A stretch of DNA of 63,849 nucleotides, filler included, from Hausera hauseri (taxonomy: Eukaryota), in the NCBI GenBank assembly GCA_046269625.1. It is 12 parts of 12 records of this genome, joined end to end, with 100 filler letters (N's around TTAATTAATTAA, not from the genome) between each part and the next. Parts side by side here need not be neighbours in the genome. Positions count along the whole stretch, not along the records: positions 11,283 to 16,160 come from JBJURY010405812.1; 11 more parts are not named here. The stretch is one strand, 5' to 3'. The position numbers and the translations under genes were made by a program. Shown in pieces: positions 130 to 58,550 of this stretch (its first letter is position 1; each line of letters opens with the position of its first letter). A model generated the notes under the pieces. The model was not told where the DNA came from and did no database searches. It saw only the letters and a list, made by a program, of their open reading frames with translations.

Positions 130-1680
130 ACTGGTCGAGTGAATGAAGCAACTCATAAACGGCAATATAGTGAAAACAAAGATGAGTTTGAAGACAGAGA
201 AACCATATTGTTTACTATTATGCTGTGGTTTTGGTTAAATTGATGCAGAATGAAAAGAAGTGGTTAGAAAGATTAAATTTAACTCCTGCTGCGAAAGATA
301 AATGCGGAGCTGTTGATGCTATTCTCAATGGTAGCATAAATGATTTTTTTAAACAATGGAAGGAAATTCTTAAAATGATGAATTGAGCTGAAGCAAAACA
401 TCAGTATCATAACGTTATAAACTTGATTTTTGTTTTGGAGAAATTTCTGGAAGTTAAAGTTGAATTACAGGATATTCTTCAAGTAAACATGGCTATTTTG
501 AATGGTTAGTACAGTTCAAATAGGTTACAATGGATAACACGCGAGGACAATTCTATACACTGTTGAATCGATTGACACAGCAAATCTATCAGTGTCTCGA
601 TGTTTGCATTGAATATATTAAGACTGAAAGGGTGGTTGGCTTAAATGGTTTATTAATACCAAAATATGCAACTGTTCACAAGTTGACAACAAATTCTGTT
701 AGATTTCTTGAAACTTTGTTAGCTCATGGAAACGTTACCGAACAGATTCTGTCAAACCTAAATGTTGCTGACAAGACTATTCCAACCAGCAAACCTGGGC
801 AAACACGAACACTGCATACGAAAAATTCTAGCAGCAACATTAATGGAGACAATAGTTCTAAAAATGCTCTCATAGAATATATCAACAAAGTTATTGAAGC
901 TCTCAATAAAAATATCACGAATATATCAATGAATTACAATGACGAGATTGCTAGAATAATATTTCAGATAAACAATCTCCATTACATCATGAAGACTATT
1001 AAGGAACATGACTTTTATGGAGGATATCAGATTTTGAATAAAGGTCATACGCAAATGCTCAGTCATTAAATCGCTCAAAAGAAATTTGTCTACGGGATTA
1101 AAGAAATACATTATCTATACTAAAGATGTTATTATTATTGAAAATTGTATCAGTTGAAGTTTGAAGTATATGTTATATATCGTTAAGTGTTCTAAAATTA
1201 CGTGCGTTTTACTTTTGGAAATATGCATGGACCTACGTTAAATTGGTGTCAGACAATATCAAACACTGTTGATTCTGATGAGAAAATGTGACCAATATTT
1301 TAGAAAACCTTTTAGGATTATCAGAATTTGATAGTCTAGTTTCAAAATCAATTGGAGAGAAATTAGATGGACAAAGAAATATCCTTCATATTGCAGTTAA
1401 CATGTGTCAAGCTATTTTGAATATAGAAGTTGATTGGAAAAGCGAATTTCTCAAGGAACACCAAGGAACGTTATTTGGCCAAACCGGGCGGATCTGATGA
1501 TGTATGTGCCGTCATCGGGTGATAGTATTAAGCTCCATTCTCTTTTATCTAATAGTGGTACGGCGATATCAAGTTCTACGATAAATTCGGTTTCTTATAG
1601 CGATGTACTGCGTACTGATCTCGCATCTACGAAATCAGGGTCGTTATTATTGTTGTGGTTGATCAACTTGGAAATCAAAA
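130..1680 (+). pseudogene. Decayed ORF fragments of an unidentified repeated family (possibly a large DNA transposon)
   Basis: Broken ORFs 530-1069, 1288-1497, 1434-1850. The block ~1275-1405 recurs in reverse complement at ~53765-53895 on another contig. Confidence 0.35.
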
Positions 1681-3439: not shown

Positions 3440-5310
3440 TTCTGTTGAAAGCTGTACTGTTATGCAGATATACTTCACATCGACTTCCTTATAGACTCAG
3501 GAGCTGCCTTTTCTCTCCTTCCCTTGACATTTGTTCCTACATCGACTATGATTTCCTGTCCACCACTTTTTACTGCCCGTGGTCAACCGCTGTATGTTAT
3601 AGGAACCACGAAAATGACTTTCACTTTCGCCAACTTGCCAGGTAAGTTTGTCTGGAAGTTCCACGTTGGAAACATTAAATCTCCCATAATAGGCCCCGTT
3701 TTTCTTGCAGCACATCATCTATTGGTCGATTGGAAATACAGCTGTCTTTTAAGCAGGATGTCGATTGAAACCCCAAACATGTGTCTCGTAGACAACTTGG
3801 CCAGAAATTCGTTGCACTCATCTGTGAACATGTTGAACGCTTCGTCAACTATAAAAAAATTCCGATAAAATCGGTATATTTCAGTTATGAACGACAATCA
3901 TAAATCTATTCTAAAACAAAAATCTAAATTAGGCGCCGATAGTAGCGATGCCAGTTGCTTTTCGTCAATCACCTGAGCTGTTCTCTCTAATGATATACCT
4001 CATTCATTCTTGTCTCTAGACTCCAATCTTAAATCATACGTCACAACGTCTTGCTTTCGCATAGTTAAAAGGGAAGTCAACTTCAAGCCTCCATCCACAA
4101 CTTATCATCACATAGTATCAGAGTATCAGAGGCAGATCAAACAAAAGGTCAGACCTCTGTCAACAAGAAGGCCTAAAGTTGTGGAACAGGAATTTAATGA
4201 ACTGGAAAGATCTGGCATCATTCGGAGATCGAACGCGCCCTTGGCTTCTCCTCTTCATGTAGTGGTAAAGAAAGATGGAACCTATAGGCCATGTGGCGAC
4301 TATCGACAATTAAACAATATAAAACTATTACAAATGCCTATCCACTACCACTCATTAAAGATATTCTTCATAGCCTCAACAACACTAATACTTATTCTAC
4401 CATTGATTTGCACAAAGCCTACTATCAAATTCCTGTTGCCCCTGATGACATTCCAAAAACTGCTGTCATCACACCATTTGGTCTTTACGAGTAAATCTTT
4501 ATGCCTTTCGGACTTCGTAGCGCATCTCAGACCTTTCAGCGCCACATTGACACCGTTCTTTCTGGTCTTAATTTTACTCACCCATACATGGATGACATAT
4601 TAGTCGCTTCCAGCTCCATCAAACAACATCACGGGCACCTTAGAATTATTTTCTACAGATTGAATCAAAGCAACCTGCAAGTTAATTTCGCCAAATGCAA
4701 TTTCTTCCAGAAACGTGTCAACTTCTTAGGCCACATAATTGCTCCCGAAGGGCATTCGCCCCAGCCTGATCGCTTACAACAATTAAAAAATGTAACGTTG
4801 CCAACCACTACTACCGATTTGAGGAGTTTTCTAGAGACATTGCATTTTGTACACAAATACGTCCCACACTGATCCGAACTAACGGCACCTTTCGCACATC
4901 TCTCATCTGGGAAGAAAAGACAATTAATCCATTGGACTTCTGATCTAGTAAACCAATTTGATCGCCTTCGTGAAGGTCTGAAAACTGTTGAAATCTTGAC
5001 CTTTCCAAAACCAAACGCTGAACTAATATTAACAACTGATGCCTCTACCAGAGCAACTGGTGCGATATTACACCAAATATACAATGGCGTCTATGAAGCA
5101 TTAGAATTCTATTCCAGAAAGCTCACGCAACCGCAAAGCCGATACTAAACATACGGTAATAAACTCTTGGCTGTAGTTCTAGCGGTAAAGCATTTCAAGC
5201 ACTAGCTTCTTTCACGTCAATTTACCATCCAAACCGACCATAAACCTTTACTTCACACAATGACTTTGAAACAGTCCTCACCCAGACAAGAATGACAGAT
5301 ATCACACCTG
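3440..5310 (+). pseudogene. pol: pol protease, reverse transcriptase and RNase H (frameshifted)
   Basis: DSGA; [24 protein letters not shown]; IDLHKAYYQIP; MPFGLRSASQTFQR; YMDDILV; TTDAS; TDHKPL. Confidence 0.92.
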
Positions 5311-6720
5311 ATGACGTTTAGTTTTTCCATAAAATATATTTCAGGTACCGAAAATTTAGTAGCAGACTTTCTTTCGCGGTCGGTTAACTCAATTACAGTT
5401 CAGCCAATTTTCTCCTCTGAGGTTCTGAGAAGCAATCAGCCATCATCTGATATTCTCCAAGCTTTTAAATCTGTTGAAATCATCGAAGGTATCGCTTATG
5501 ACACTTCCAACTCGACCAACAAAAAAATCATTCTTGCTCCATCGCTACAAAAGGCAGCTTTCGATCACTTTCATTCTCTTAATCATCCGCGTTCAAAAGC
5601 CACATTTTGTCTACTGCAGCGCCACGTTGTATGGCCAACTATGCGTATCGATGTACAGATCTGGGTCAAGGGATGTGTAGCATGTCAAGAATACAAGGTT
5701 TATAATCACCACAAACCACCACTATACCACTTCCCTTGCACTTCTCGTTTTGAAACCGTGCATTTGGATCTTGTGGGTCCTCTACCTGCCGACAATGGTT
5801 ATCAATATATCCTATCCATGATAGATCGCGCTTCTCGCTGGTCGGAAGCCGTTCCGCTTCGATCAACCAACACTGACTCAGTGGCTGATGCATTTATCAA
5901 GATATGGGTCAGCCGTTTTGGTTCAACACGTCACATCATAACGGACCAGTGTCCGCAATTTGAATCTGATCATTGCAAACCTCTTGTAAAGCACTTGGGA
6001 ATAGCGCATCTTCATACGACGCCGTACCATCCCCAAGCAAATGGTTTTCTCGAGAGATTTCATCGCACCATGAAGATTTCCTTAATAATCCTGGCCAACA
6101 ACAATCATAACTGGACCTCAGTTCTTCCTCTTGTCCTACTGGGTTGGCGCAACACACCATCCATCACTACAGGCTGTGCTCCAGCTAAGGCTATCTTTGG
6201 GACACCAGTTCGTGCACTATTTAAACTCTCCAATCTCGATGAAAGTCCGTCAGATGAAGTTATTTGTGCGGCACAGTCCCACTTTGATGATGTAAACTCG
6301 AATGCCTTCTGCCGTTTTATAAACAGAGACAAATCTTATATCCCAGAGGACTTATACTCATCAACGTTTTTATGGCTGAAGGATCGGTCACCTTCTGGTT
6401 TTCGGCCTCAATACGTTGGACCTTACAAACTACTCAATCTTTCTTCACATACTGCTACTATTTTACGTAAGGACAAACCCCATAACGTACACATTTCTAA
6501 TCTTAAGCCAGCCTTCTTTGTTGACAATGACCAGAATAACAGCATTGTTTCAAATCCCAACTCTAATTTCTCTACCCTCGAGCCATCGTCTAATTTCCTT
6601 GATGATTTTAATCATTCGCAGCATTCACTCTCGCGTAACAATCAACTCTCTTCACTTTGTCAACATACAGTGCTCTCTCACCATCTGCCTCTCCGTTATC
6701 GCCTGCACATCCACTACTGA
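5311..6720 (+). CDS. pol: Gypsy integrase (HHCC zinc domain, rve DDE core, GPY/F motif)
   Basis: 469-aa open frame: HSLNHP...CVACQ, VHLDLVGPLP, IITDQ, QANGFLERFHR, QYVGPYK, VHISNLKP. Confidence 0.93.
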   Translation: MTFSFSIKYISGTENLVADFLSRSVNSITVQPIFSSEVLRSNQPSSDILQAFKSVEIIEGIAYDTSNSTNKKIILAPSLQKAAFDHFHSLNHPRSKATFCLLQRHVVWPTMRIDVQIWVKGCVACQEYKVYNHHKPPLYHFPCTSRFETVHLDLVGPLPADNGYQYILSMIDRASRWSEAVPLRSTNTDSVADAFIKIWVSRFGSTRHIITDQCPQFESDHCKPLVKHLGIAHLHTTPYHPQANGFLERFHRTMKISLIILANNNHNWTSVLPLVLLGWRNTPSITTGCAPAKAIFGTPVRALFKLSNLDESPSDEVICAAQSHFDDVNSNAFCRFINRDKSYIPEDLYSSTFLWLKDRSPSGFRPQYVGPYKLLNLSSHTATILRKDKPHNVHISNLKPAFFVDNDQNNSIVSNPNSNFSTLEPSSNFLDDFNHSQHSLSRNNQLSSLCQHTVLSHHLPLRYRLHIHY

Positions 6721-11282: not shown

Positions 11283-12375
11283 CAATTCTGGGTTGGCGTA
11301 TATGAGAGCCAATTTTGTCCTTATGATTTAGGTATTCAATTTGCAGTCATTCGTTATCATTTTGTGATATAATTCCATTATTACGGCTTGTCCTTTGTAA
11401 CAGAAGTAATCGTCTCTGTTTTTTAGGTAGTCCTCGATTCGGACGTCCTGAGTTTTTAGTTTGTAAGTCCTTGCGTTTATTTCTGTCTCTGCGACAAAAA
11501 ATGCTTCGTGGTTGGTGGCGAACATTACTACATCACAACGGGAGATCATTGCATACTTGATGAATTTTAGTCCATGTTGATCAGAAATTAATATAGTTGA
11601 CGTAGAGTGTTCTGATACATCCTCGCGAGTTCTTGAGTTTGTATCTGATTTATCCGCATATCACTTTCCGGTAGTTTCGTTAAACTTTAGTTCTTTAATT
11701 TTAATAAAATTACAACTTTTTCCAGAGTGAGGTTCCCATATTATAACCGAGCTTCTGAAAACACAGGTACCGTCTTGTATGTGACATTTTTGATTCTCAG
11801 TATATAACTTGGTAACACAATGGGACATTATCTTCTGTGATCGCATTTCTGATTCGTAAAAATCCACAACCACCACGTTTGATTCTAATTCTTTTCCGGT
11901 ATCGTATTCTGCTCCACTACAATGTCCGCTATGCATATCTAATTTCCCGGCTACTACTTTGTAGACCCTAATTATTTTTCCTGGTTGCATCTCCAACTCC
12001 ATATTGTCCCACTGTATCCTTCCAGTCTCTCTGGCTTGTTTGCAGTGCTGTCGTTTTAAATTCATCGGAATTAGTGGAGTGGTTGGCTTGATTATGGAGG
12101 AATGTCCATGTATTAATCCACAGTGAAAGATACTACGAGATCGTCTCAACATACATTCCATGCCGTCCATCGATATCAATTCTTGTTGTTGGTATAGGAA
12201 ATAGTTCTTTTCTTTTGTTTCCAGTTTATGTGGTCTGGCATACTCACATGCTTCTAAATCCATTAGTGAATATTTTTGTCCAAGCTTAAATCTATCACAG
12301 TCGTAGACGGTAACAGCACCCATGTGTTTTACCAGCATCATTATGGTAAGTAGGCTGACTAGCCAATTTGATTTG
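11283..12375 (-). pseudogene. env: Chuvirus-like / herpesvirus gB-type (class III) envelope glycoprotein ectodomain, truncated at the contig end
   Basis: Signal-like WLVSLLTIMMLVKHMGA, then VYDC..YSLMDLEAC..EC..RSRSIFHCGLIHGHSS..C...TG..VAG....GHCSGAEY...NVVVV..C...DGTC....IIW..C, then FATNHEAFF..IEDYLKNRDDY..LYHKMITNDC..KLALIYANP. The cysteine spacing is typical of chuviral G. Two in-frame stops. Confidence 0.87.
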
Positions 12376-15300
12376 TTTTTTGGTTATTATTATTCGTTGT
12401 CGTTAGATTGCGTATAATGTCTCCGAGTCCGTTGTTACTATTCCTTTTGTCTTCTTCTTTGTCGAACAATTTTAACCAATTCACTTCACACGGAAGCTTC
12501 CTAGATGCTTTTAGCGCCAAACTCGTGGCTCGATTTAGTTCGTTTTCTCGGTTTGGATTTGTCTTAATCGCCAAGTATAATAAACTTTTCTTAGCTCTTT
12601 TATAGTATTCTCTACCATAATCTTCTCAACTACTGCGTCGTAAATTAGACTACTTTTGGACAGTTTGAAACGCAAACTTCTCATTGTTCTAACTGTGTTA
12701 AATATCGCCCTTTCTTTATCATCTAACGTATCTCCAGGGAGACTTGAATAATTTACAATAAGTATTAAATTTTTCATTAACTTACTTAGTTCTTCATTAT
12801 CTGTACTAAAATTAGGGATTGACATCTGTCTTAGCTCTCTAATCAGTTCTCCATTATAGTCGATTTCTTCTCGGAGTTTCCTAGGCCTGCCGACTGGGCG
12901 TTTTTTTCTCGGAGCATAGGCTGGCATCCCACTTAGCGGTACTAGATTCTTGTTGTATTGTTCCTTGTCTTCGTCCATCTGTAAATACTCGAAATACATT
13001 GCCGCATCTCCTACTCCCATGATTTATCCTACACATTGTTCCGTTTGAATCTTACGCGTGGCTTCCTCCTTCGTCTGTTCATTGGCTATTATTACTACTA
13101 TCCGATTTGTTTCGTCGGGAATAATTCCGACATCTATTAACTGTTCTAAATCATCAAGTATTCTTCCTCTAAAATAAAATCTGTAATTTAGCTCATTTGT
13201 TTCGCCATTATTTAATAACCATTCTCTTACGTCCTTTACGTAGGAATGAGTAGTTAACTCACATTCTTTTTCTTCCATCAACTCGGATGATATCATTATT
13301 TTCATCATTACCTCGGGTTTAGTCTTCAAGATGTCTCCATATTTTTTTATCAAAAGTTTCGGCACCATGCTGTAAATTGTATTCTCGCTAGATAATTTAG
13401 TTAAGGTCGAAATAAGTTGTCTGAGTTTGTTTTCAGTCATGTTCACATTAATTGATTCCATTAAGCCCTTCTCGGTTAAGGCTGAGTCTAAAAGCATCTC
13501 TATGTTAAATTTCTTGTTCTGCGGATATCCTTCAATTTCTTCTAGGTGTATTGGAGTTATCGGATTTTTGGCCGTTATTTCTTCTAAATAAGCATCCCAT
13601 TCTGGTTCGTTTCCAATATATGGGAGTCCATAATCTACTAAAGCTGTTTTCGTCCTTTGCACGTTTTCTCGAATTTTTCTCAATTTTGGTTTTATTCCTT
13701 TCATCTGTGTAGTTTGGAATCCTATTCCGTTTCCAAAGGCATATTGAATCATTTTCAGTAATTCGCCTAATTCATTAGAATCGATGAATCCACTTTGACG
13801 ATAATCGGTTAGCTCGATAATTACATCACTTTGCCATATTTGTACAAATTCTCGCTTATTTTTAATTTCTGATTCCGTAAAAGCGTATTTGTTTCGGTAG
13901 CCTTCAAACTCTTTTGTTAGTTCATCTAGTCTCGTTGCTCTTTGTTTTGTTTTGATGCATGTTTCTTCAACTTGTTGTATTTTGGGCATTAATTGCCTCA
14001 TCATTTCATCATTGATTTCCGCCATTTTTACCAGTAAATGAGCTAGTTCATACATGCCATTTATCGTTTTTGAGTCGGGATCCATTGCATCCGACAATTT
14101 CTTCACGAACTTGTGTTCCTGAAAGCTAAAATGTGCGTCGTCTCTAATTTTTGTCAACTTGGTATGAAAATTCTGGTCTGATAGGTCATCCATTCTTGTG
14201 GTTTATGCAAGAATTTTATTGCGTCTGTAACGTATCTCGATGTCCGGGACAGATGTCTAAGATTTCAATATCTTGGGCAGAGATCTTGTCGATCGATTTT
14301 TCCGTTAAGTATTGGATTCCTTAAGATCGAGCAACCTTCAACTTTGAGTTTACATCGCAAATCATGTTCCACTTTTCCGTGAAGTTCGTCTCTTCGATCA
14401 ATTTGTAGATCTCTTCCAATATCGACGTTTCTTGTTCTCTTTTCATAAATTTTAGCCGTCTTAACGCTTCGAATTGGGTGCGGATATCTATTTCTATTCG
14501 CATTGTGCCTAGATCATGTGCACTTTCTTCTAACTGCTTCTTTACCATTGGTTCGCTTTGCGGGAATTTTTTTTCGGTCTTCTACTAATTTGCTTTGTCG
14601 GTCTACTAACTCGGACCATTCCGGCAATTGATTTGCGACTACTGGTTTTACCATTATAGCCTTATCTAACATTTTATATGCGTCTTTTAACTCATCGTCG
14701 GGCCCTCTTAGGAAATTTATAATCCGACCGATATAACTAAACTAGTCCTTATATTCGTCTAGTTCTGCGATACAAGCTTTTATTACGTATTGAGTTTCCT
14801 CATGATTTGGGGACATCATTCGGTTTCTTAAACTATTGATCTGTGATCTTTTTTCATTCTCCATTTTGATGCGACTCTCTAAGTCCGCACATCGACCGTT
14901 TTCGACAAAAGCGATTTTTATCATCTCCATTAAAGGAGGAATATCTATCAGGTCTGCACCCAATATCTCTAAATCAATACTACTTCAATCGCTAACCGGT
15001 TTTTCCATAATCCGATTAATCATTGCACAGCGAATTTCATCCATAATACGTTCTAAATTACGGACTACTCTCTTCAGTTTAGGGTTTTTTTCTAAGGTAG
15101 ACAGTAGCGTTTGAGCCTTAGTAACTTTCACATCAATACTATCTTCGTTTTTACTCCATCCTTCTGAAAATTCTACTCCACTCTTAATCCACGACTCTAA
15201 TTCGTGGTTCCATTTTATCAACGTATCTCGTCGCACCTCTTCTGGTTGTCTTATTTCAATTGCTTTATCGAGTTTCCCTTCACTCCATAATTTTAAACCC

Positions 15301-15900
15301 TTGTATAATTTCTCCGCAAATTGTTGTCCCTTACCAGATGTCTGTTTGTTTACTGATTTGTTTGAGCTTCTCTAAATTGTGTCGGAGTATTTCTGGATTG
15401 TGACACTTAGTTCTCATCATTTTTTAATTCATAGGCATTCTTCCATGAACGTCGAACTTTTTATTTTTTGTATCAGGATCATTTTTGTCGTTCGTTTCTT
15501 CTTCACTAGCGGGAAGCGGACAAATTTAATTTATTTCGTCATTAACGTTTATTATCACTGGCGTTTCCAACACTTCTGGAATCCCTACTGGCGTGATGGA
15601 AGTTTCTGAGGACGAGTCGTCTCTTAGGACAGCGGTATATAATTCTTTTTCTTTTGCGTCTCTCTTTATGGGAGATCTTGAGCGAGTCTTGGATGTCCTA
15701 TTAGGCGATGGACTTCTTCCTCTATTCTTCGTTACATTGAGAACTAAAAGTCCAATAAATTCACTCTCGACTTCATCCGTTGTTTTCTCTGGATTATGTG
15801 TAATCGTTTCTATTTCCGTATTTAAGTCTACATTTTGAGATGTTGATGTTTTCTCGGACTGCTCTATTCCTTGCGGAACAGACTTCTTACGTGCCATTTT
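12360..15900 (-). pseudogene. Long accessory ORF region (~1200 aa if stops/frameshifts are repaired) of the env-bearing element: Arg/Ser-rich N-terminus, coiled coils, ubiquitin-like domain (~13087-13311), AT-hook (~12877-12900)
   Basis: Collinear ORFs 15526-16077, 14985-15236, 14742-14963, 14321-14548, 13024-14193, 12535-13020, 12359-12574. YRFYFRGRILDDLEQLIDVGI resembles ubiquitin [29 protein letters not shown] is an AT-hook. A homolog of the N-terminal half lies at 31676-32990. Confidence 0.65.
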
Positions 15901-16160
15901 TGTATTGCTCGGTGCCAATGCCCATTCTTCTTCAGTTTGTGGTTCTCTTAATCCATGATAAATTTCCATTACTAGTAATTTCTTTTCATATTCTTTTCTA
16001 GCGTTCATTACTTGAGGGTTTGTAGTCTCGCCTAGATTCCTTGCAGATCTGCGTAAGTCTTGCATTTCAATTATCAAACTTATATCACCTCCTTTACCAT
16101 AGATTGCTTCTAAGTTATTTTTAATTATACTTGTTTTGTTTGGTTCAGTAAATGTGACAC
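15900..16160 (-). pseudogene. gag: Gag C-terminal tail (downstream of the zinc knuckle) of the env-bearing element
   Basis: FTEPNKTSII..ETTNPQVMNARKEYE..YHGLREPQT matches FTKPTKTNII..ETNNPQILKARKEYE..YHGLAEPRT, which follows a CCHC knuckle at ~34590-34850. Confidence 0.7.
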
Positions 16161-16517
16161 NNNNNNNNNNNNNNNNNNNNNNNNNNNNNNNNNNNNNNNN
16201 NNNNTTAATTAATTAANNNNNNNNNNNNNNNNNNNNNNNNNNNNNNNNNNNNNNNNNNNNAATCGAACATTACTTTTTACATGAATCAAATTGTGCTTGT
16301 GTGGATCATGTTAATTATGTTACCTTTTAGTGGTTTTAACCACATTCTTTTGTTATTGTTTGGATATTTTTATTTTTTAGGCTGTCAGGAAAATATATAA
16401 CGCTATGGCACCCAAATCATGGCGTGTAGTCGTATTCACAAAACACAAAATCCTTCTTAAAAAAAAGTTCTTATTGCGGTTGATGATTTTAATTTTTTTG
16501 TTGGGGTGTCACTTCAG

Positions 16518-16627
16518 GCTGTCAAGACTCTAGCTTTTGAGCACAAAAGAAGAATCTACGACATCATAAATGTGCTGGAGGGTATTGGTCTTATTGTCAA
16601 AATATCTAAGAACCATGTAAAGTGGAA
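16518..16627 (+). CDS. E2F: Exon of an E2F4/5-like transcription factor DNA-binding domain (teleost-like)
   Basis: AG/GT-bounded 110-nt exon [36 protein letters not shown]. Confidence 0.9.
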
Positions 16628-16984
16628 GTAAGTTTTTAGCTCTCGTTTTGTGTACGTTCACAAGTGAAACAACACAGTATATGTTTTACAAAGTTTTATG
16701 TGTTTTCCAAAATATTGGATAAAATGACCATAAAATTGAAAGTTACAACTGTTATTTTTACTTTTTTAAGAAAAAGCTATTTTTAAATACAGGAAAAAAT
16801 AAATTAAAAAATTATTAGTATTTACATGCAATATCTTTGAGTCACAATTTCTGCCTCAAATAATCATGAAAAATTTGGGTTCTGATTATTTTCAGGGGTT
16901 TAGGTAATTTAATATTTGGAGGTTTTCAATTGGCAGAACACTGTAAAAAGCATGGTTATTGAATTGGAAGAACAATGCGGGGTA

Positions 16985-21805: not shown

Positions 21806-23015
21806 AGGGAAAAGGCGTCTTTCCATACACTTCAGCAACATCATTTAGTGAATTGCAGTCGATTTCTGAGTTACCTCCAAAATGGGATGGCGTTAGTGAT
21901 AGCAATTATGAGGAAGTGCAACTTTCTTTGTTGAAATATGGTTGCAACAGTCTTTTAGATTATATATTGGTGTACATGAAACTCGATGTATACTTGTTAG
22001 TAGATGTTTTTGAATGTTTTAGAAAGGAGGTTAAGTTGCAGGATGGTTTAGAGGCTCTTAATTTCGTTTAAATTCCTGGTTTGTCTTGTGCCACACTGAA
22101 ATCCAGTCCTTGTAAGATTGAGCTTATACAGGATCATGAAATGTCCTTCAGTCGGGTTTTCGCGGTGGTATGACTTTTGTAAATAAGCATAGGGTTATAC
22201 CTGATGAAAACCCCAGTCTCTTGTATATAGATGTAAATAATTTGTACGATTGGGCTTTATCTCAACCTTTGCCATTTGCGAATTTGACTTTGATTTATGA
22301 TGAGGAAAAATTAAATAGTCTGATTGAGCAATTACCCTTTATTAACACTGTTACAGAAAAACGAGGCTTAGTTTTTGAGGTTGATTTAAGTATTCCAGCT
22401 GACAAGCATGATAAATTGGACCAACTGCTTTTAGCTCCAATAGATCAATGTCCTCCTGATTCCAAAGTAAAAAAAATTGTAGCTGACACATGAGCCTAAG
22501 TCCAATTATGTTATTCACTATCGGCTCTTACAGTTATATCTCGAGTTAGGCGCTATAGTTGAAAAGGTACATCGGGCTGTTGAGTTTGACCAGGGTTATG
22601 TATTTAATGATTATATGGATTTAAATACTGCTAAAAAAGATGCAGCGAATAATCCTTTTGAGAAAGACTTCTTTAAGCTTAAGAACAACAGTTTATATAG
22701 CAAGACTGTTTGGAATTGTCTGAAAAGGTCCAACTTGAGACTATGTAATAATGCTAAGAACCTTATTACATACGCCAGCAATCCACAGTTTAAGGAGAGT
22801 ATCATTATAGATGATGACCTGGTTGTCGTTCTCCTTGATAAGGATGTTGTTACGTTAGATAGACCCTCATACATCGAACAGGCCGCACTTGATTTATCTA
22901 AGTTACGGATGTATGAGCTGAATTATATCAAATTGGCGACGTACAGGCACCAGTTCATGCCAAGTTCAGTGTGAGAGCGAGAGCTTTTTCCTCGAGTGCC
23001 GTGGAGTTGAACTTA
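21806..23015 (+). mobile_element. polB: Maverick/Polinton (adintovirus-like) protein-primed family B DNA polymerase, decayed
   Basis: KGVFPY; YMKLDVYLLVDVFECFR; RGGMTF; LLYIDVNNLYDWALSQPLP; EKDFFKLKNNSLYSKT; PSYIEQAALDLSKLRMY; degenerate DTDS (ESESFF). Confidence 0.92.
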
Positions 23016-27568: not shown

Positions 27569-29611
27569 TCATTTAAAGGTGCCAAACACCTGCCTCCTTC
27601 TGTCACTCATTGACACAAACTGCTGACATATTTGATCAATGTCTAAATTGTCTAATTTTGTCTGGTGGACATGGACACGGCAACATTATTAAACCTTTCT
27701 TGAGTCATTGTTGATCTGAGCCATGTCTTTAGCCTTGTAAGTGTTGCTGAAATGTTTTATGCATTAAAAAAGGAATTCATATTTGTTCTTCAGTAGTTAG
27801 AATATTTTGTTTTTAATTTGTTTAGCTCATACTCTGAAAATGTGATATTTTGTACAAGATGCATTTATTCTGTCGTGAAGGATTATTTTTGGTAGTATCG
27901 TTATCGCGAGATTTGTGTGAACGGAAGGGAGTGGCGAGATTTGCTGTGCTCAACACACACACACTTTTACCTGAAGCTACATGCAGTTACCTGAAGACAC
28001 GAGAGGCGCACAGCAGCCTTGATAGTTCACTAACTGTAAAGGTATTTATAACTGTTGTAAACATCGTACATCTGTCAGTTGTGTTGTTCTAATATTTTAT
28101 ATGTTTATTTAGAATGCATTAGACGAGAAACGCTCGCTTAGGACTTCTTTAATGATGAGCGGCCACGAGGTATTTCCTTTGTTAAAGCATGTTTTACTCA
28201 TCGCTCAGTACTGTACCTGAAGCTTTGTGTTTTATTTCTGTACGTTCTGTCTTATTTCTGTAGTTTTCACGGCATTCATTAAAGCGCCCGTTTGAATAAA
28301 GAAGCCGTGCCCGTGTGTCGTCATTAAGAAGCTACAAGCCTCCTGAGAGCACTAAAACTCCTCTCTGCCTCAGCTGAAGACACTGGATTCACCAAAAGCA
28401 ATCTAACAAGCGTTTCCACTTGATCAAACAACCCTCTGACTTCTGTAGTCATCTCTCTGAGTAATGTGACCACTTCATCACTGGACTTGCAAGCATACTT
28501 AGCATGGAACATGTTCAACTGAACCTTCAGACTGTGGCTACTTAATTCTGGATACTGGTCCACAGTTTCATCCACATCTCCAGAAAGTAAAACAGCCTCC
28601 AGTTTCTCCAACACATTTAAATCAGCTTGAGTGAACCTCTCCTGAAATTGCATATCAACAGTATCAAGCATGTGATAGAACTCAGCTCTGTAGTGCTCCT
28701 CAGCAGTCTTGGGACAGTGTTGGCTTGCATCACCACTATAACGCTTTGGTGGTCTTCTTTGGTGAGGCATCTTGATTTCTTCTAAGCCAAGAGCATCTAT
28801 CATTTGTGTAGCCTCATCAAAAATGTCATGAAACTTCACATCATTTCTTTTTTCAGCAAGGCTGGATCTCACACACCCAATACCTTCTCTCATCCCAGAA
28901 ATAGTCTCAGTGCGTTTTTGAATTGACCTGTTAAGACATTCCATGTCGTCAACAACCAAAAGTGCCAAACGAAGTCCCAGAACAGTGTTGCCTTTTTGAA
29001 ATCTCTCTAAGAGACCATTTGCCTTAACATTGCTTGATGCCATATGTTCTAAGCTTTCGAGGACAGATTCATATTGGCTTAGAACAGCAGTAATGGCTTT
29101 ACAACGGACCGTCCACCGGGTAGGACATAGTGGTCTAAGAGAGATACTTGACCCTTCTGCACTTAATGCAGTGGCAGCAAACAACAACTTCAATTTTCCT
29201 GACTGCTTGCTTAGAGTACCTAACTCATGAAGCCATAGCATTCTTCCAGTTTGTAAACCCCTTAATTGAAAATGCTGCATCTGCTTTTTTAGACAAAGTA
29301 CTTTTTTCAATTGTGTATGTTTTAACACAATAAAAGCAAAGAATGCCCTTAGCTTTATCATTGTAGTGAAGCCATGGATGCTGATTATACCACCTGTCCT
29401 GAAAATGCAACGTTCTATTTGAAAGTTTTTGAGTCCCAATGACTTTGGAATTTGGCTGATTTGGTTTCATGAATGTATCAAAAAAATCATCTCCATCTTT
29501 TGCTTCAAGACTGCAGACTCTCCCTTCCTCCTGGCTTTCATCCACAGATTCTTCGATGTTCTCTACTGATGAATGAATTTCCTTGAGAACAGAATTTTTA
29601 TTAATTTCCAC
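27569..29611 (-). mobile_element. ZMYM1-like hAT transposase (teleost-like), internally deleted and split by a solo LTR
   Basis: TTF zinc finger FQDRWYNQHPWLHY..LCFYC..GFTNWKNA; LRPLCPTRWTVR; dimerisation domain PVSSAEAERSFSALRRL, resuming after the LTR as KTWLRSTMTQER..HVH..FGTFK* (27569-27735). Confidence 0.9.
27736..28336 (+). mobile_element. Solo LTR, 601 bp, with a 5-bp target-site duplication
   Basis: TGTA...TACA termini, AATAAA near 28295, and AGCCT at both 27731-27735 and 28337-28341. Confidence 0.9.
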
Positions 29612-30129
29612 TATTTTCTGACAAAATGCCAGCTGGTTTTAGTTTAATGTATTTCACCTGTGAGCCTCACTTTGCATCTGTCCCTGAATTGGCTGGCATA
29701 AGCATTCCTGTGCCCTGTGAAAATATGCATGCCAAACAAGTTATGAAGCATCTTAAATATTCACAATAACCACAGTACAATGTTCATCACGTTTGTTACT
29801 AGAAATGTTTAATTACATAAAATGTTTTACTTCAAAATGGATCTGTTTCATTACATGTTTATTTCTTACCTGAAATTCAAATGTTTACTACAAATGTGAT
29901 CAATTTCATCATGTTTACATGTTAGTGATGAATCAAATGTTTCATGAATGTTTACCACATGAATTTTTATTAAATGAGAAAAAAAACAAGCACTTATCTT
30001 ATTATTCAACTGTAAAATATTTCAAAACAATGAGTGCAGCAGATATAATTTTTTCTCCAGTCTACATTTTACATATATCAGTAGCAGCATGTGCAGGTTT
30101 CATTAGCATTAGATTTACAACCACACTAG

Positions 30130-49289: not shown

Positions 49290-49560
49290 GCATTTTTCAG
49301 CTTTCATGTCATAAAAGTGACATGCCTACAAGACCGGTTTTGTCTATAATTAATACTCTAAATGCAAGTTCGCAAAATTGCTAGACTATTTTCTAAAAAG
49401 GTTGATTAATAATGAAAATGTAAAGATTATTTTGAGTTTGCGGATTTTATAATCAACCAAACATGTCAAGACCCTAATAAGGTTATGGTGTCATTTGACA
49501 TTGTGAGTCTTTTGCAAACATTCCACTTGATTTTATCATTGATTTATGTGTGGATTCGAT
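49290..49560 (+). mobile_element. Penelope-like reverse transcriptase fragment
   Basis: HKSDMPTRPVLS..VKDYFEF..VMVSFDIVSLFANIPLD. Confidence 0.8.
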
Positions 49561-52500
49561 TGACAGTTTGAGGTGTTTGGCTACTTTAAACTTCTGGCAT
49601 GCCGCACACTCCCTAACCCAATCCTGCACATCTGTTCCCATTGACGGCCACACAACTTGACATTTAAGAAGACGATAGGTAGCTTTGTATACAAGATGAT
49701 GCAAGGAATGGATATTGGTGAAGGCAGTCTTTTGCAAAGAAGGTGATAGAATAATTTTAGTAAACCCAGGGTTAGAGGTGTTCAAAACTACGCCATCAAT
49801 GATTTTGTAAGATTTGAAGGCGGAGAGAATAGATTCCTCTGGCAGGTTCCGTCGGAGTAATTCACTATCAAAAATGGGTGCAAATGTGATCGAGTCGACG
49901 TTTAACACGAATGCTGAGAGAAATGAAATCTACCTCTATTGACGTGGAGATGGAGATTTTATGAATATGAAGTAGGGGCTTGTGGTCCCTTTGAATGGTA
50001 AATATGCGTGAAATTAGACGACGTTTAAAATTCTTTAATGCTAAGACCATTGCAAGAAATTCCCTGTCGAAAGTCTAGTAGCGTTGTTCGACTTTTGAGA
50101 TTTTTCGTGAGAAGATTTCAAGAGGTTGATGGGAACCAGCCTTGAATTGATGCAGTACTGCACCTGCTGCTGTTGTGGAGGCGTCAGTTGTTAAGAAAAG
50201 TTCCGAATGTGGATCAGGGTATACAAGGATTTCCACAGTTCTTAAATTATCCTTGAGGTGTTCGAAAGAATTGACTAAGTCAGTAGTCCAGAGAATAAGC
50301 TGTTTCTTCTTACCGGGGCTGAGTTGGCGAATGCTGCCATAAGTGTTGAACAGTGAGGCATATATGAGCACGAAGTAAAGCGTTCCTAGAAAAGAGCGCA
50401 TTTCTGTTGATGTGCGTGGTAGTTGGATATTTTTGAGTTGAATGCTGAGATCTTACTGAGCAGAATGACCAGATTAGGTGATAACGTGTCCAATAAAGTT
50501 TGATCCTGTATTGGAAAAAAGCATATAACAAAGTTTACTTCAAGGTGCAAGCGTTGAAAAATTATGCGCAAATGTTCCGCATGCTGTTTGGGGGATGATG
50601 AAGCGATAAGAATGTCGTCTATATATGGAAAAGCAAAGTCTAGTCCAGCAAGAACTGTGTCAGTGTCTTTGGAATGTCCGGAAGCTCAAAAGGCATATAC
50701 ACATACTCGAAAAGGCCAAATGATGTTATTACAGCCGTTTCAGTATGCCAGGAATTTGGTGATCGATGGACGAAAAAAGAGGCAATGGATATGCGTCCAT
50801 GATGGTAATGGTGTTTAGTTGGCGATAATCACCACAAGGTCTAAAGGTGCCGTCCTTCTTGGAAAAATGTTTAAAGATCAATTAATAGTTGGCTGAAGGA
50901 TGACGATGACGTGGGCACTTGGTCATCGGTTAAGGTGGTTTTTGAGGTGATGTTGCCGGAAGAGGAAGACTCATTATTCTCAACGCTCAAAATATTGGTA
51001 TTCGAGGTATCATAAGGTAGAAGATTATTTACAAAATATTTATTTTAAAATCGATCTGATATTCGATTTTATAATTGAATCGCACGCTGAAGTTGAATGT
51101 AAAATAGTTGAGACTGATAAAATTTTGAAGGAAGGGCTTCCCATCAAACGACTAATAAATTGTAATGTGAAATAAAATCTGATCCAAGGATTGGTCTTTG
51201 GACATTGGCTATTATGATTTTCCAATAAAAAAGTTTAGAAAAATCTGAGAGCGAAAAAGATGTGCTGTGCCAATGGTGCGCAACGGTTCACCATTGGCTG
51301 TAAATAAGGATTTACTGATTGAAGATTTCTGCGATTCATAAGAGAGAGGAAGAAGTGAAACTGCAGCTCCAGTATCAATGAGGAAAGAGATGGAAGAATT
51401 TTTGGTCGTAATGGTAGCTTGCAGTGTGAAGACAGCAAAGAATGCATTACGGCTATTTAATGAAGCGTTTGCGCCTTTACCAGAGGTTGCCGTTAATTCT
51501 GGTGGCGTTGATAGTTTCTTGAAGGCGTTGTTGAGTTTAATTGTGCCGAAGAATCGTAAATTGTACAGCCTGGTAGGCATTTGCGAGCATTTTCGAGAAA
51601 TTTATTGTGATAAATGCTGACGACGTCATTTGATGTAATATTTTGATTGTAGAATCTGCATCCTATGTAGCATTTATTTGAGCGCTGCTCAAATTTACAA
51701 TGAAAGAAAAAGATCGGACTGCGCGTTGTTTTTGGTGTAGTCATTGCTTCTGCAATGCTGAGTGGATTTTGAGTATGTAGTATATCATAGCTTTTGTCAG
51801 CAAGTTGAGCTAATTTTTCCAGTGTGGCAATGTCTTTAACAAGTGTGAGAAGGGCCCTAATTTATTTTAATAAAGATTGGAGAAAGTAGTGACGTAAGAG
51901 ATCAGCATTGTGGTCTTGAGTCACACCCAAAGTACCAATTCGGACGGTTTGGTGTGACCTAATATGTTTTCATTAAAGACTTTGGATTATTGCGTAGATA
52001 CATGGTTCGGTGAGATTTATAACTATGGCGTGATGTGAGTTACATGGGTACGTTTCAGAAAAGATTTCTGAAAGATTTGATAAACGTGAATTTAAAGAAG
52101 GAATGTAGCGAAGGATGCTGTTGGCTTTTAAGAAAGAATCTGTCAGATTGTGAGCTTTTAACCAACCAGAATGGAAGTCCAATCAAGTCCGGAAGGGAAT
52201 TTTGGCAGTCCAGAAACAAATCGACACACTGGAATGTCAAGGAGTTGGAAGATAATTTTGTCACTATGACTGGTTGTGAATAAAGTTTTTTATGCTCCAA
52301 AGTATTGGGATTAATATCAGAACCACTAAGAAGGTGAGGTGCAATTGAAACCATTGGATGAACGGATCGTAGAAGTGTGTAAAGGGTGAATTATCTGTGT
52401 ATTGGAGGAGAAGACTATTATGATGAAGATGGAAGGTTTTAAAGAAATGGTGTCTGATAAAAGAATATAGCTGTTGTATTGTCATATTTATACATGTGTG

Positions 52501-54256: not shown

Positions 54257-55170
54257 TTATTGGATTGACCCAAAAAAACAGTCGGACGTCATATTGAGAT
54301 GAAAGGGTGAGTTAACTTTTTTCCAAAAGCTTAGCAATTTATATTCGACTACTTTAGATGCGTTTGGCTTGCGAACAATCAAATGTAGTGCTTCATTTTC
54401 AATAGCCATGCCCACTATGCTTATATTAGAATTTGACGTTGGCTTACATGCCAAATATGCTTCAGTTGGTATACGCTTAGGATACTTTTAAACTATTTCT
54501 GGAACACGATATATTAAAGATTGTTGAGTGATCACTAGTTCTTCTTTACGTAACAATCGGCAATCGTTTAGCCCAGATGTACGTGCATGAACTTTGATTT
54601 TCCGAGCATCAAAATAATCTGGATTACAGTGATGGATATAAAACTCATGATCACCAGCACGAAATGCCAAGACGTTTTTATGAGCATTCAATATTTTAAC
54701 ATAAAATCTGGAACAGAGAGTTTTCTTATGAACAGATTTGACGACAAAATGTTTAATAACAAAAGGAATAACAAAAAGAATATTTTTAATTTTGTTCCAA
54801 AGGATTTCAACATGTAGTATTAATTTGTCATCATGCTTAAGTTCGCCGTATTTATCTTCTGAATATAACCGGGCAAGGAAACGAAATGACATGAACTCTT
54901 TATGACCAATTTTGATATTTAGAACCTTTTTGTGGCCGTTGGTAAGTACTAACTCGTACATAATCCGCATATTAGGTCATTTAAAAAAACACAGGTGCAC
55001 AATAAAGGGATACAGTAAAATCACCGACCTTTTTTGTACCCTGGGTCGAGAACGTCTGTAGAGCACTGCATCATTGGGTATCTTCATTCGATAGCCCGTG
55101 ACAGATGACCGTGATTCATGGGATGGCCGTAATTTGGTGATACCGGAAACCTGTGACACCATTGTAATTT
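54257..55170 (-). pseudogene. Possible MATH-domain protein fragment
   Basis: IGHKEFMSFRFLARLYSEDKYGELKHDDKLILHVEIL resembles the MATH C-terminal WG..KF.....L......L.DD.L...VEI pattern. The frame is interrupted. Confidence 0.4.
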
Positions 55171-57259: not shown

Positions 57260-58550
57260 CACGGGGGTGATGTTGTACCCACCGTGCTTCGGGCCCCTGG
57301 CCCATTGTGGCCGAACAACGCCGGGTGCATCGGTTTCGCACCGATGGTTTTTTTTTCGGCATTGTTTTCCTTCCTCAGGGAATTTTTGATCTTGACTGTC
57401 TTTGATTAGAACAGGAACGAGCTATATGTCCATAGCTTTTACAGGAAAAACATAAAGTTTGTTTATCCTGATTAACCGTTGGCTTCCTCATTACAGACTT
57501 TTGAGGTTGATTATGGAAGGTAGTCTTCTTCTGCTGTTGCTCTGGTTGATTTTGAGATTTTTGAAACGGTTTCTGAAATTATTTCTTTTGTTGAAAATAT
57601 TTCAGTTTCTTTTCATCATTTTTAGGGGTTTTTTTTGCATTTTCAAGCCTTTCGTAATTGACTTCTATCTTTCTTGCTTTGCTGACAGTTTTTTTATAAA
57701 TATCAGTATCAATAACCATAATATAATTCTGAATTATTTTGGTTACTGCATAACAGAACTGAGAGAGAAGAGAATTTTCTCTTATGTCTTCATCTGAATT
57801 TGTTCTCTGAGTCAATTTCTGAACAGCACAGGCATATTCTAGAACGGTTTCGCCTTTCCTTTGACGTATCTTGTTGAATTCTTCAATTCGACCCTTTCCT
57901 GATGGGTTTACTAAAAGTCTTTCTTTCAGGGACTCTTTAAAGTTAGCCCATTCAGATTTGTCCTCATTTTCAACTTGAGTATAAGGACTGAGTGTTATAC
58001 CGTTGGAATGAAGTGGAAGACGGTTTACCTTCAGCTCGTCTGTCCATTCGAAGCCTTCTGAGTACATTTTGTATTGCATCAGGAACTCACTGTAGTCTTT
58101 ATCTGGTTTGTCTTCAAACTTACCCATGGGCAAAACCATTGTGCCACTTAGGTTGCTGCCTAAGCCACCATTTAATTCAGAACTGGGCATTTTTGTTCTT
58201 CTATTTGAGGGTTTTCTTCTGTTTCAGAATCGGATGGGCTTTTCGTCAAATCCGTGTTTTCTATTATATTACTATTATCAGCTTCTTTTCTTTTAAGAAG
58301 ATTATACGCCGCCAGCGTGCCTCCTCACTTGGGGCACAAGTTTTAAGTTTATAAGATCGATAGAAATTTTGATTCTCACGACCTGAAAACTTAAGCTTTA
58401 TTTGTTCTTACAGCAACCTGTGGGTTGCCCTAATTTATTTGACCTTAAGGTGTGAGTCGAGCGTTAGGAGTGACACTAGCCGATTGTGGAACCCGACTGT
58501 TTAGTTGGGGAATCCGGCTGAGTTCCAACCGGGAAAGTCAAACTGTATAT
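57260..58550 (-). mobile_element. gag: 5' part of another Gypsy element: probable LTR remnant, PBS, gag with CCHC knuckle; pol absent
   Basis: TTGTGCCCCAAGTGAGG (~58323-58339) resembles a tRNA-Met PBS (TGGTGCCCCGTGTGAGG); retrotransposon Gag ORF 57579-58190 (RQRKGETVLEY); CFSCKSYGHIARSC at ~57412-57453. Confidence 0.8.

What the first reader, a model, noticed from the sequence alone, without database searches (positions are those of the whole stretch)
12870..13311. Ubiquitin-like domain and AT-hook just upstream of the viral-type envelope gene
Seen: the last ~75 aa block of the 389-aa ORF (MMKIMISS..ECELTTHSYVKDVREWL..YRFYFRGRILDDLEQLIDVGI..IVVII) fits a beta-grasp ubiquitin-like fold and lacks a C-terminal GG. 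The next ORF has RKKRPVGRPRK (AT-hook/NLS). Inference: a captured UBL plus a chromatin-binding hook in a retroelement accessory protein is unusual. It could act in proteasome/ESCRT engagement, counter-defence or integration targeting.
Basis: partly seen in the sequence, partly recalled or inferred. Interest (0 to 1): 0.72.

Follow-up and report, generated by a model that had tools for sequence, protein, structure and literature searches.

The report
Burro-like retrotransposon ubiquitin-like domain
This is a broken copy of a high-copy, envelope-carrying mobile element with a ubiquitin-like domain and a likely DNA-binding hook just ahead of its envelope gene, a layout largely described already for the giant Burro retrotransposons of flatworms, to which it is likely related.

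Summary
The ubiquitin-like domain (UBL, 13087-13311, minus strand) is real. A distant relative (P0002 on locus L001) shares it, and a profile of the two matches ubiquilin-2 at E 1.9e-4. The AT-hook-like motif (12877-12909) is present, and the relative has a canonical one at the same place.

The two ORFs are most likely not accessory genes. In L001 one unbroken 997-residue frame runs Gag capsid, zinc knuckle, helical segment, UBL, hook, Bcl-2-like domain, and is followed in frame by the same type of envelope gene. The window copy is a decayed member of a large family (15,427 contigs laid). A UBL without GG is expected for an internal domain.

The order Gag...UBL-BCL2-env was published for planarian Burro Ty3/gypsy elements (PMC6431247). 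I did not find the hook in print. Pol and LTRs lie off both contigs, so membership is likely, not proven. The Bcl-2 fold is shown only in the relative.

Most likely function (inferred): a non-conjugatable docking domain that sets turnover of a Gag-side, anti-apoptotic cassette. Verdict: new member of a known kind; interest 0.3.

The parts
13087..13311 (-). Ubiquitin-like domain, internal, no C-terminal GG (ORF389 residues 295-369)
12877..12909 (-). AT-hook-like / NLS-like basic motif with GRP core; Val precedes the Gly here, Arg in the relative
13324..13470 (-). About 50-residue predicted helical segment directly before the UBL, conserved in P0002 (578-626); family unknown
   Evidence: 0 of 1000 shuffles reach the score; helices only from a low-confidence model
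13591..14037 (-). Predicted helical/coiled-coil domain, 37% identical to P0001, not detected in P0002
13024..14193 (-). 389-codon open stretch, read here as a stop-bounded piece of a longer Gag-side polyprotein (inferred); its stop is at 13024-13026
12362..12870 (-). Segment in the position of the relative's Bcl-2-like domain, broken by a frame change near 12.6 kb; homology to the relative not significant
   Evidence: position; shuffle tests
11283..12383 (-). Envelope gene, Monjiviricetes/gB-type fusion glycoprotein with signal-peptide-like start; internal stops; cut by the contig end
   Evidence: PF24664 E 1.4e-17 and 1.7e-4; 25% identical to L001 env; hydrophobic core
14194..16160 (-). Upstream coding region broken into five stop-free pieces over three frames; no family match; Gag capsid and LTR would lie beyond the contig end

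Best explanation
This is a decayed copy of a high-copy, envelope-carrying element, likely a Burro-like Ty3/gypsy LTR retrotransposon, in which a ubiquitin-like domain and an AT-hook-like motif likely sit inside one Gag-side polyprotein ahead of a likely Bcl-2-like domain and the envelope. SHOWN: the UBL match, the absence of GG, the motif, the env family, the many diverged copies, and, in relative L001, the unbroken order Gag-CCHC-helical-UBL-hook-Bcl-2-like followed by env. INFERRED: that the window's pieces were once one protein, and that pol lies downstream of env. MECHANISM (inferred, about 0.4): the UBL cannot be conjugated and works as a built-in docking surface for host ubiquitin receptors, most likely the proteasome's, as in ubiquilin/Rad23-type UBLs. 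It would set the lifetime of the Gag-side fragment that carries the Bcl-2-like domain, which would keep the producing cell from dying while enveloped particles form. The basic hook would give nuclear import and weak binding to AT-rich DNA or RNA. Identity as a Burro-like element is about 0.8; the confidence below blends the two.
For: P0002 is one of only 2 hits among 1.84 billion representatives and matches exactly the helical+UBL stretch. It carries Retrotrans_gag (E 3.2e-4), zf-CCHC (E 1.4e-5) and ubiquitin (E 4.2e-5). Its C-terminal domain hits Pfam Bcl-2 weakly (E 0.02); all 45 listed Foldseek rows are Bcl-2 family; the top 14 of 50 VIA rows are Bcl-2 family, best BHRF1 Z 8.5, rmsd 3.4, 127 aligned. 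Env follows in frame (PF24664 E 7.1e-43). Burro has Gag-CCHC...Ubi2/SUMO-like, BCL2, env, then pol in one polyprotein (PMC6431247 section 7). By eye, L001 env shares its motifs with the six Schmidtea GAG-ENV-POL elements in the supplement of PMC13524379. 15,427 (X1) and 1,295 (X2) contigs lay on the contig, 30 of 30 bins are covered, and single contigs span the UBL with 28-53 differences. 0 of 17 listed difference sites in ORF389+ORF161 fall on third codon positions (p 0.001). The best PDB matches are ubiquilins. A Maverick cargo UBL is reported to limit its protein's abundance (bioRxiv 2022.07.12.499685, passages).
Against: No RT, integrase, Gag capsid or LTR is on the window contig, and L001 ends inside env. 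The window's segment at the Bcl-2 position does not align significantly to the relative (100 and 50 of 1000 shuffles; 1050 and 99 of 2000). The Bcl-2 model is low-confidence (pLDDT 42.7), no Foldseek row reaches E 0.001, and the tool warns that Z under about 13 can be a common helical arrangement. L001 lacks Burro's MATH, BIR and ankyrin hits and has a stop before env, unlike the published single frame. The window env is only 25% identical to L001 env. Only one full relative was found. Best-hit likeness to ubiquilins at this divergence does not show proteasome binding. The codon-position test uses 40 tool-chosen rows of 1,208, and only 1 lies in the UBL.
Confidence: 0.6

Rival explanations
1. 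Same element, but the UBL is a structural or partner-binding module of the polyprotein itself (spacer, Gag or Bcl-2 partner) with no link to the host ubiquitin system, like the non-conjugatable Ubl domains of coronavirus nsp3 (recalled).
For: The UBL is far diverged from ubiquitin (13.5 bits). A conserved helical segment is fused directly before it in both elements, suggesting a two-part unit. The window UBL has only 3 lysines against 12 in the relative.
Against: It sits among apoptosis- and ubiquitin-related domains in Burro. The hydrophobic strand and glycine before the helix turn align with ubiquilin-2.
Confidence: 0.25
2. The UBL replaces a late domain: fused to the Gag side, it recruits ESCRT ubiquitin receptors for budding of enveloped particles. 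Ubiquitin fused to retroviral Gag can do this (recalled).
For: It is fused to Gag in L001 and lies just ahead of env. No PPxY, PT/SAP or YPxL motif was found in P0002 or in 8 window segments, so a substitute may be needed.
Against: The closest solved matches are proteasome-shuttle UBLs, not ubiquitin itself. Nothing shows that these elements bud at a membrane. No binding was tested.
Confidence: 0.12
3. The ORFs are separate accessory genes, as the first reader read them, with the hook steering integration to AT-rich chromatin.
For: A Met follows two codons after the stop. Burro elements can move domains into accessory ORFs. Whether the stop at 13024-13026 is shared by most copies was not determined.
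Against: The relative has UBL and hook in one Gag-fused frame. The window copy has many other stops and frame changes. The hook is not on integrase.
Confidence: 0.1
4. The element is not an LTR retrotransposon but a Maverick/Polinton-type DNA element with a gB-like fusogen and UBL cargo, or an integrated piece of a negative-strand RNA virus.
For: Nematode Mavericks carry a gB-like fusogen and UBL-bearing cargo. The env family is named for negative-strand viruses. Polinton polB pieces occur on another contig of the window.
Against: The only relative with the UBL is fused to retrotransposon Gag and a zinc knuckle. Maverick cargo UBLs are N-terminal to a protease or kinase. The polB contig is separate and unlinked.
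Confidence: 0.05

Closest known systems
Burro / GYPSM1 giant Ty3/gypsy elements of planarians (PMC6431247, section 7 read whole; Grohme 2018 and Jurka 2007 not seen)
   Same: Gag with CCHC at the front (in L001), then a ubiquitin/SUMO-like domain, a BCL2-like domain (in L001) and a mononegavirus-type env, in that order; many copies; decayed copies with stops and frameshifts are described for Dugesia japonica.
   Different: AT-hook not mentioned (0 occurrences). L001's Gag-side ORF is compact (997 aa) with no MATH, BIR or ankyrin hit, and has a stop at the env boundary. The best Pfam family here is PF00240, not PF11976. Pol, LTRs and size could not be seen.
GAG-ENV-POL errantiviruses with HSV/gB-type env in Platyhelminthes, Nematoda, Bryozoa (PMC13524379; abstract, section 5 part 1 of 2, passages, supplement rows)
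   Same: gB-type env directly after the gag side; L001 env resembles the Schmidtea C1a group by eye.
   Different: That paper does not mention ubiquitin, Bcl-2 or AT-hook (0 occurrences; ubiquitin 0 in 7 supplements). The window env is more diverged, and no tree was built.
Type II (integral) UBL domains of ubiquilin-1/2, Rad23, BAG6, Dsk2
   Same: Profile match over the whole domain, no terminal GG.
   Different: Internal in a retroelement polyprotein, not N-terminal; no UBA partner shown; receptor binding untested.
UBL-bearing cargo (WASP proteases, KRMA kinases) of nematode Mavericks (bioRxiv 10.1101/2022.07.12.499685, passages)
   Same: A diverged UBL on a mobile element that also has a gB-like fusogen; precedent for a UBL controlling abundance.
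   Different: DNA transposon; the UBL is N-terminal on a separate enzyme; no Gag, hook or Bcl-2.

Membership tests
Burro-like Ty3/gypsy | N-terminal retrotrans_gag plus CCHC knuckle(s) | tested here: inconclusive
   Met in L001; beyond the contig end in the window
Burro-like Ty3/gypsy | Ubiquitin/SUMO-like domain ahead of BCL2 and env | tested here: met
   UBL about 0.7 kb before env in the window; same order in L001
Burro-like Ty3/gypsy | BCL2-like domain between UBL and env | tested here: inconclusive
   Supported in L001; the window counterpart is positional only
Burro-like Ty3/gypsy | Mononegavirus-type fusion glycoprotein after BCL2 | tested here: met
   PF24664 in window and L001
Burro-like Ty3/gypsy | Env in one frame with the Gag side | tested here: inconclusive
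   Same frame but one stop in L001; out of frame in the decayed window copy
Burro-like Ty3/gypsy | PR-dUTPase-RT-RNaseH-IN after env; LTRs; length over 25 kb | not testable with these tools
   Both contigs end inside env; no genome is held
Burro-like Ty3/gypsy | MATH, BIR, ankyrin, Smc accessory domains | tested here: inconclusive
   No Pfam hit in P0002 or in the window's broken upstream pieces; content varies among published Burros
Burro-like Ty3/gypsy | High copy number | tested here: met
   15,427 contigs laid in X1, 12,134 of them under 95% alike; not an exact copy count
Ubiquitin-like (beta-grasp) domain | Profile match over the whole domain | tested here: met
Ubiquitin-like (beta-grasp) domain | Predicted beta-grasp structure | tested here: inconclusive
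   Single-sequence model pLDDT 28-39 over the domain; no fold search of it could be run
Conjugatable ubiquitin-type modifier (type I) | C-terminal GG or internal LRGG cleavage site | tested here: not met
   Absent after the last strand in window and P0002
AT-hook | GRP core flanked by K/R (PMC11354804, passages) | tested here: met
   Window ORF161 residue 44; P0002 residue 814
AT-hook | HMGA-type Arg directly before the GRP core | tested here: not met
   0 matches to [RK]GRP[RK] in the window's six frames; present in P0002
AT-hook | Minor-groove binding of AT-rich DNA | not testable with these tools
   Needs a binding assay; Pfam listed no family for either 32-residue segment

The most novel reading that the evidence does not exclude
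Helical-UBL-AT-hook-Bcl-2 is a conserved, compact host-control cassette of gag-env-pol retrotransposons, kept across elements only 27% identical. It is coupled to the envelope by a programmed leaky stop: L001 has 1 stop in 1400 codons, exactly at the Gag/env boundary, and env has no Met before its signal-like segment. In the extended product, the env signal segment would double as the membrane tail anchor of the Bcl-2 domain, giving a transposon a virus-style anti-apoptotic protein under UBL-set turnover.
Probability: 0.2. Interest if true: 0.65.

Novelty: new member of a known kind. Interest (0 to 1): 0.3.

Why it matters
The UBL-BCL2-env order is already in print for Burro, so the core observation is not new. 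What this adds is modest. There is sequence and fold support for the UBL and Bcl-2 calls, a conserved AT-hook-like motif I did not find described, a conserved helical segment before the UBL, and a compact 997-residue version in L001. That small version makes the open suggestion that Burro elements meddle with host apoptosis and ubiquitination (PMC6431247) testable with isolated domains.

Tried and rejected
Word-indexed protein searches found nothing (3 of 3). Locus scans found no relatives in viral contigs, genome contigs or the first metagenome scan; L002 matched only 51 low-complexity linker residues and was dropped. No genome is held. AlphaFold of ORF389 was unusable, and a fold search of that model could not be queued. 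NCBIfam gave nothing useful; no PDB sequence hit for env. The Atlas gave no usable hit for the Bcl-2-like domain. Contig depth peaks over the UBL bin, top of 23 non-env bins in both runs, but the tool states contig depth cannot rank parts of a gene, so I did not use it. No RNA holder was listed; this is no evidence on expression. A per-site look at copies over 12870-13311 was not obtained, so no dN/dS for the UBL exists and the status of the stop at 13024-13026 is open. No stable hairpin follows the L001 stop (z 0.36), which gives no support to readthrough. Weak Pfam hints (ATG16, WIYLD E 0.034, EF-hand) were not pursued. No repeat of the contig elsewhere in the window. Troyka elements (PMC12440569, part 1 of 5) are unrelated. 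Literature searches for a hook or UBL in LTR elements listed nothing relevant; one search missed the Burro paper because of its wording, so these blanks are weak. Grohme 2018 is not held, Sacco 2022 was not found, and figures are not visible; any of them may annotate the hook.

Full report
SETTING. The window is 12 short contigs joined by artificial spacers. The finding lies on one 4,878-bp contig (11283-16160), coding on the minus strand along its whole length. No genome is held, so flanks cannot be read. The contigs appear to come from more than one organism: one holds a tuberin exon close to the human protein. I did not establish the host.

OBSERVATION. The stated sequences are present. The UBL is residues 295-369 of the 389-codon ORF and is followed by 20 residues without GG. 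On its own the match is sub-threshold: Pfam ubiquitin E 0.064, Atlas score 0.91, no ubiquitin chain among 11 PDB hits. The AlphaFold model had pLDDT 38.9 and says nothing.

A RELATIVE DECIDES IT. An exhaustive search of 1.84 billion representatives gave 2 hits. P0001 matches residues 53-201 (37%). P0002 (997 aa) matches residues 243-371 (27%). Both the UBL and the 50 residues before it beat 1000 of 1000 shuffles against P0002. The relative's UBL hits Pfam ubiquitin at E 4.2e-5. A profile of the two finds ubiquilin-2 at E 1.9e-4; 56 of 60 listed PDB rows are ubiquitin or UBL domains, a few identified from memory.

ARCHITECTURE. P0002 is encoded on L001. One frame gives Retrotrans_gag, a CCHC knuckle, a long linker, the helical segment, the UBL, a canonical AT-hook at residue 814 and a C-terminal helical domain. 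A single stop follows, then env in the same frame. The C-terminal domain is Bcl-2-like on three weak but agreeing lines: Pfam Bcl-2 E 0.02; 45 of 45 listed Foldseek rows, none at E<=0.001; and the top 14 of 50 VIA rows, best Z 8.5, rmsd 3.4, 127 aligned. The model behind the two fold searches has pLDDT 42.7, so they are not independent of each other. The window shows the same order: helical, UBL, hook, about 170 codons, env (PF24664 E 1.4e-17; 25% identical to L001 env). The window's 170-codon segment is broken by a frame change and does not align significantly to the relative, so its Bcl-2 identity rests on position alone.

ONE PROTEIN, NOT TWO ACCESSORY GENES (inferred). ORF389 and ORF161 share a frame with one stop between them, and the copy has further stops and frame changes upstream and in env. 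Runs X1 and X2 laid 15,427 and 1,295 contigs on it, covering 30 of 30 bins. Listed contigs span the UBL with 28-53 differences, and one spans the UBL and the stop region. X1 may be the source sample. Of the 40 listed difference sites (of 1,208), 17 fall in ORF389+ORF161 and none is at a third codon position (p 0.001); over all assigned segments it is 6 of 38 (p 0.013), with 2 sites unassigned and env alone flat at 3/3/3. This fits a family constrained in this frame and a copy that is decaying. It is not a dN/dS, the rows were chosen by the tool, and only one lies in the UBL. Whether the stop is private to this copy remains open.

THE HOOK. The motif meets the GRP-plus-basic-flank definition (PMC11354804, passages) but lacks the HMGA-type Arg before Gly, which the relative has. 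It lies 65 codons after the UBL here and 109 residues in P0002. Shuffle rates are 15 of 20000 and 14 of 20000. It may be a DNA/RNA hook, an NLS, or both; nothing here separates these.

WHAT IS KNOWN. Arkhipova and Yushenova (PMC6431247, section 7 read whole; authors' names recalled) describe planarian Burro polyproteins as Gag with CCHC knuckles, MATH, a Ubi2/SUMO-like domain, BCL2, a mononegavirus-type env and then pol. They suggest the elements meddle with apoptosis and ubiquitination, and note decayed copies in Dugesia japonica. PMC13524379 reports GAG-ENV-POL elements with gB-type env in flatworms, nematodes and bryozoans; L001 env resembles its six Schmidtea sequences by eye, with no alignment or tree run. 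Burro is transcribed when piRNA control fails (PMC8532177, passages). AT-hook has 0 occurrences in both main papers, and searches listed nothing relevant. Grohme 2018 with its supplement, Repbase and the figures were not visible, so the hook may be annotated there.

HOW IT MOST LIKELY WORKS. Without GG or LRGG the domain cannot be conjugated or serve as a DUB cleavage signal (shown absent; consequence from established ubiquitin biology). I favour a docking role for proteasome-type ubiquitin receptors that sets the lifetime of the Gag-side, Bcl-2-bearing fragment (inferred, about 0.4). This rests on the ubiquilin-type best matches, the domain neighbourhood, and the Maverick cargo precedent. A purely structural role (0.25) and an ESCRT role (0.12) are the main rivals. 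None was tested.

A SIDE OBSERVATION. L001 has 1 stop in 1400 codons, at the Gag/env boundary, and env's first Met lies after the mature-protein start. Both elements have an 8-residue hydrophobic core there. This suggests programmed readthrough, but it is one contig, noticed after the fact, and no hairpin follows the stop.

VERDICT. Real feature, interpretation partly right, largely known. New member of a known kind; it works like Burro, and membership is likely but untested for pol and LTRs. Interest 0.3.

Noticed in passing
L001:3058-3060: The only stop in a 1400-codon frame sits exactly between the Bcl-2-like domain and env, and env has no Met before its signal-like segment; possible programmed readthrough.
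   Followed up: partly
window 13591-14037 (-): Unnamed helical domain shared with P0001 (37%, ENA contig of 2157 bp) but not detected in P0002; suggests modular gain or loss in the Gag-side protein.
   Followed up: partly
window 45108-45554 (-): Tuberin (TSC2) exon close to the human protein (E 4e-22), while other contigs carry diverged genes; CpG ratios range 0.34-1.2 among non-satellite contigs. The window probably mixes organisms.
   Followed up: partly
window 524-1066 (+): Diverged Exo70 fragment (Pfam E 5.5e-20).
   Followed up: no
window 16461-16628 (+): E2F/DP DNA-binding domain fragment (E 2e-14).
   Followed up: no
window 22170-22974 (+): Broken protein-primed-type DNA polymerase B pieces, Polinton-like (E 3e-5).
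   Followed up: no
window 3449-6720 (+), 49486-51580 (-), 57579-58190 (-): Decayed Ty3/gypsy pol and gag pieces (rve, Integrase_H2C2, Retrotrans_gag) on separate contigs; no link to the finding's contig shown.
   Followed up: no
window 28324-29638 (-): hAT-type transposase remnant (Dimer_Tnp_hAT E 0.0015).
   Followed up: no
window 35852-40532: A whole contig of a strongly skewed simple satellite with 4-base periodicity; its ORFs are artefacts.
   Followed up: no
window 41435-42175 (-), 54488-54970 (-): A 246-aa ORF with no family match and a 160-aa ORF with a weak FERM_C hit (E 0.004).
   Followed up: no
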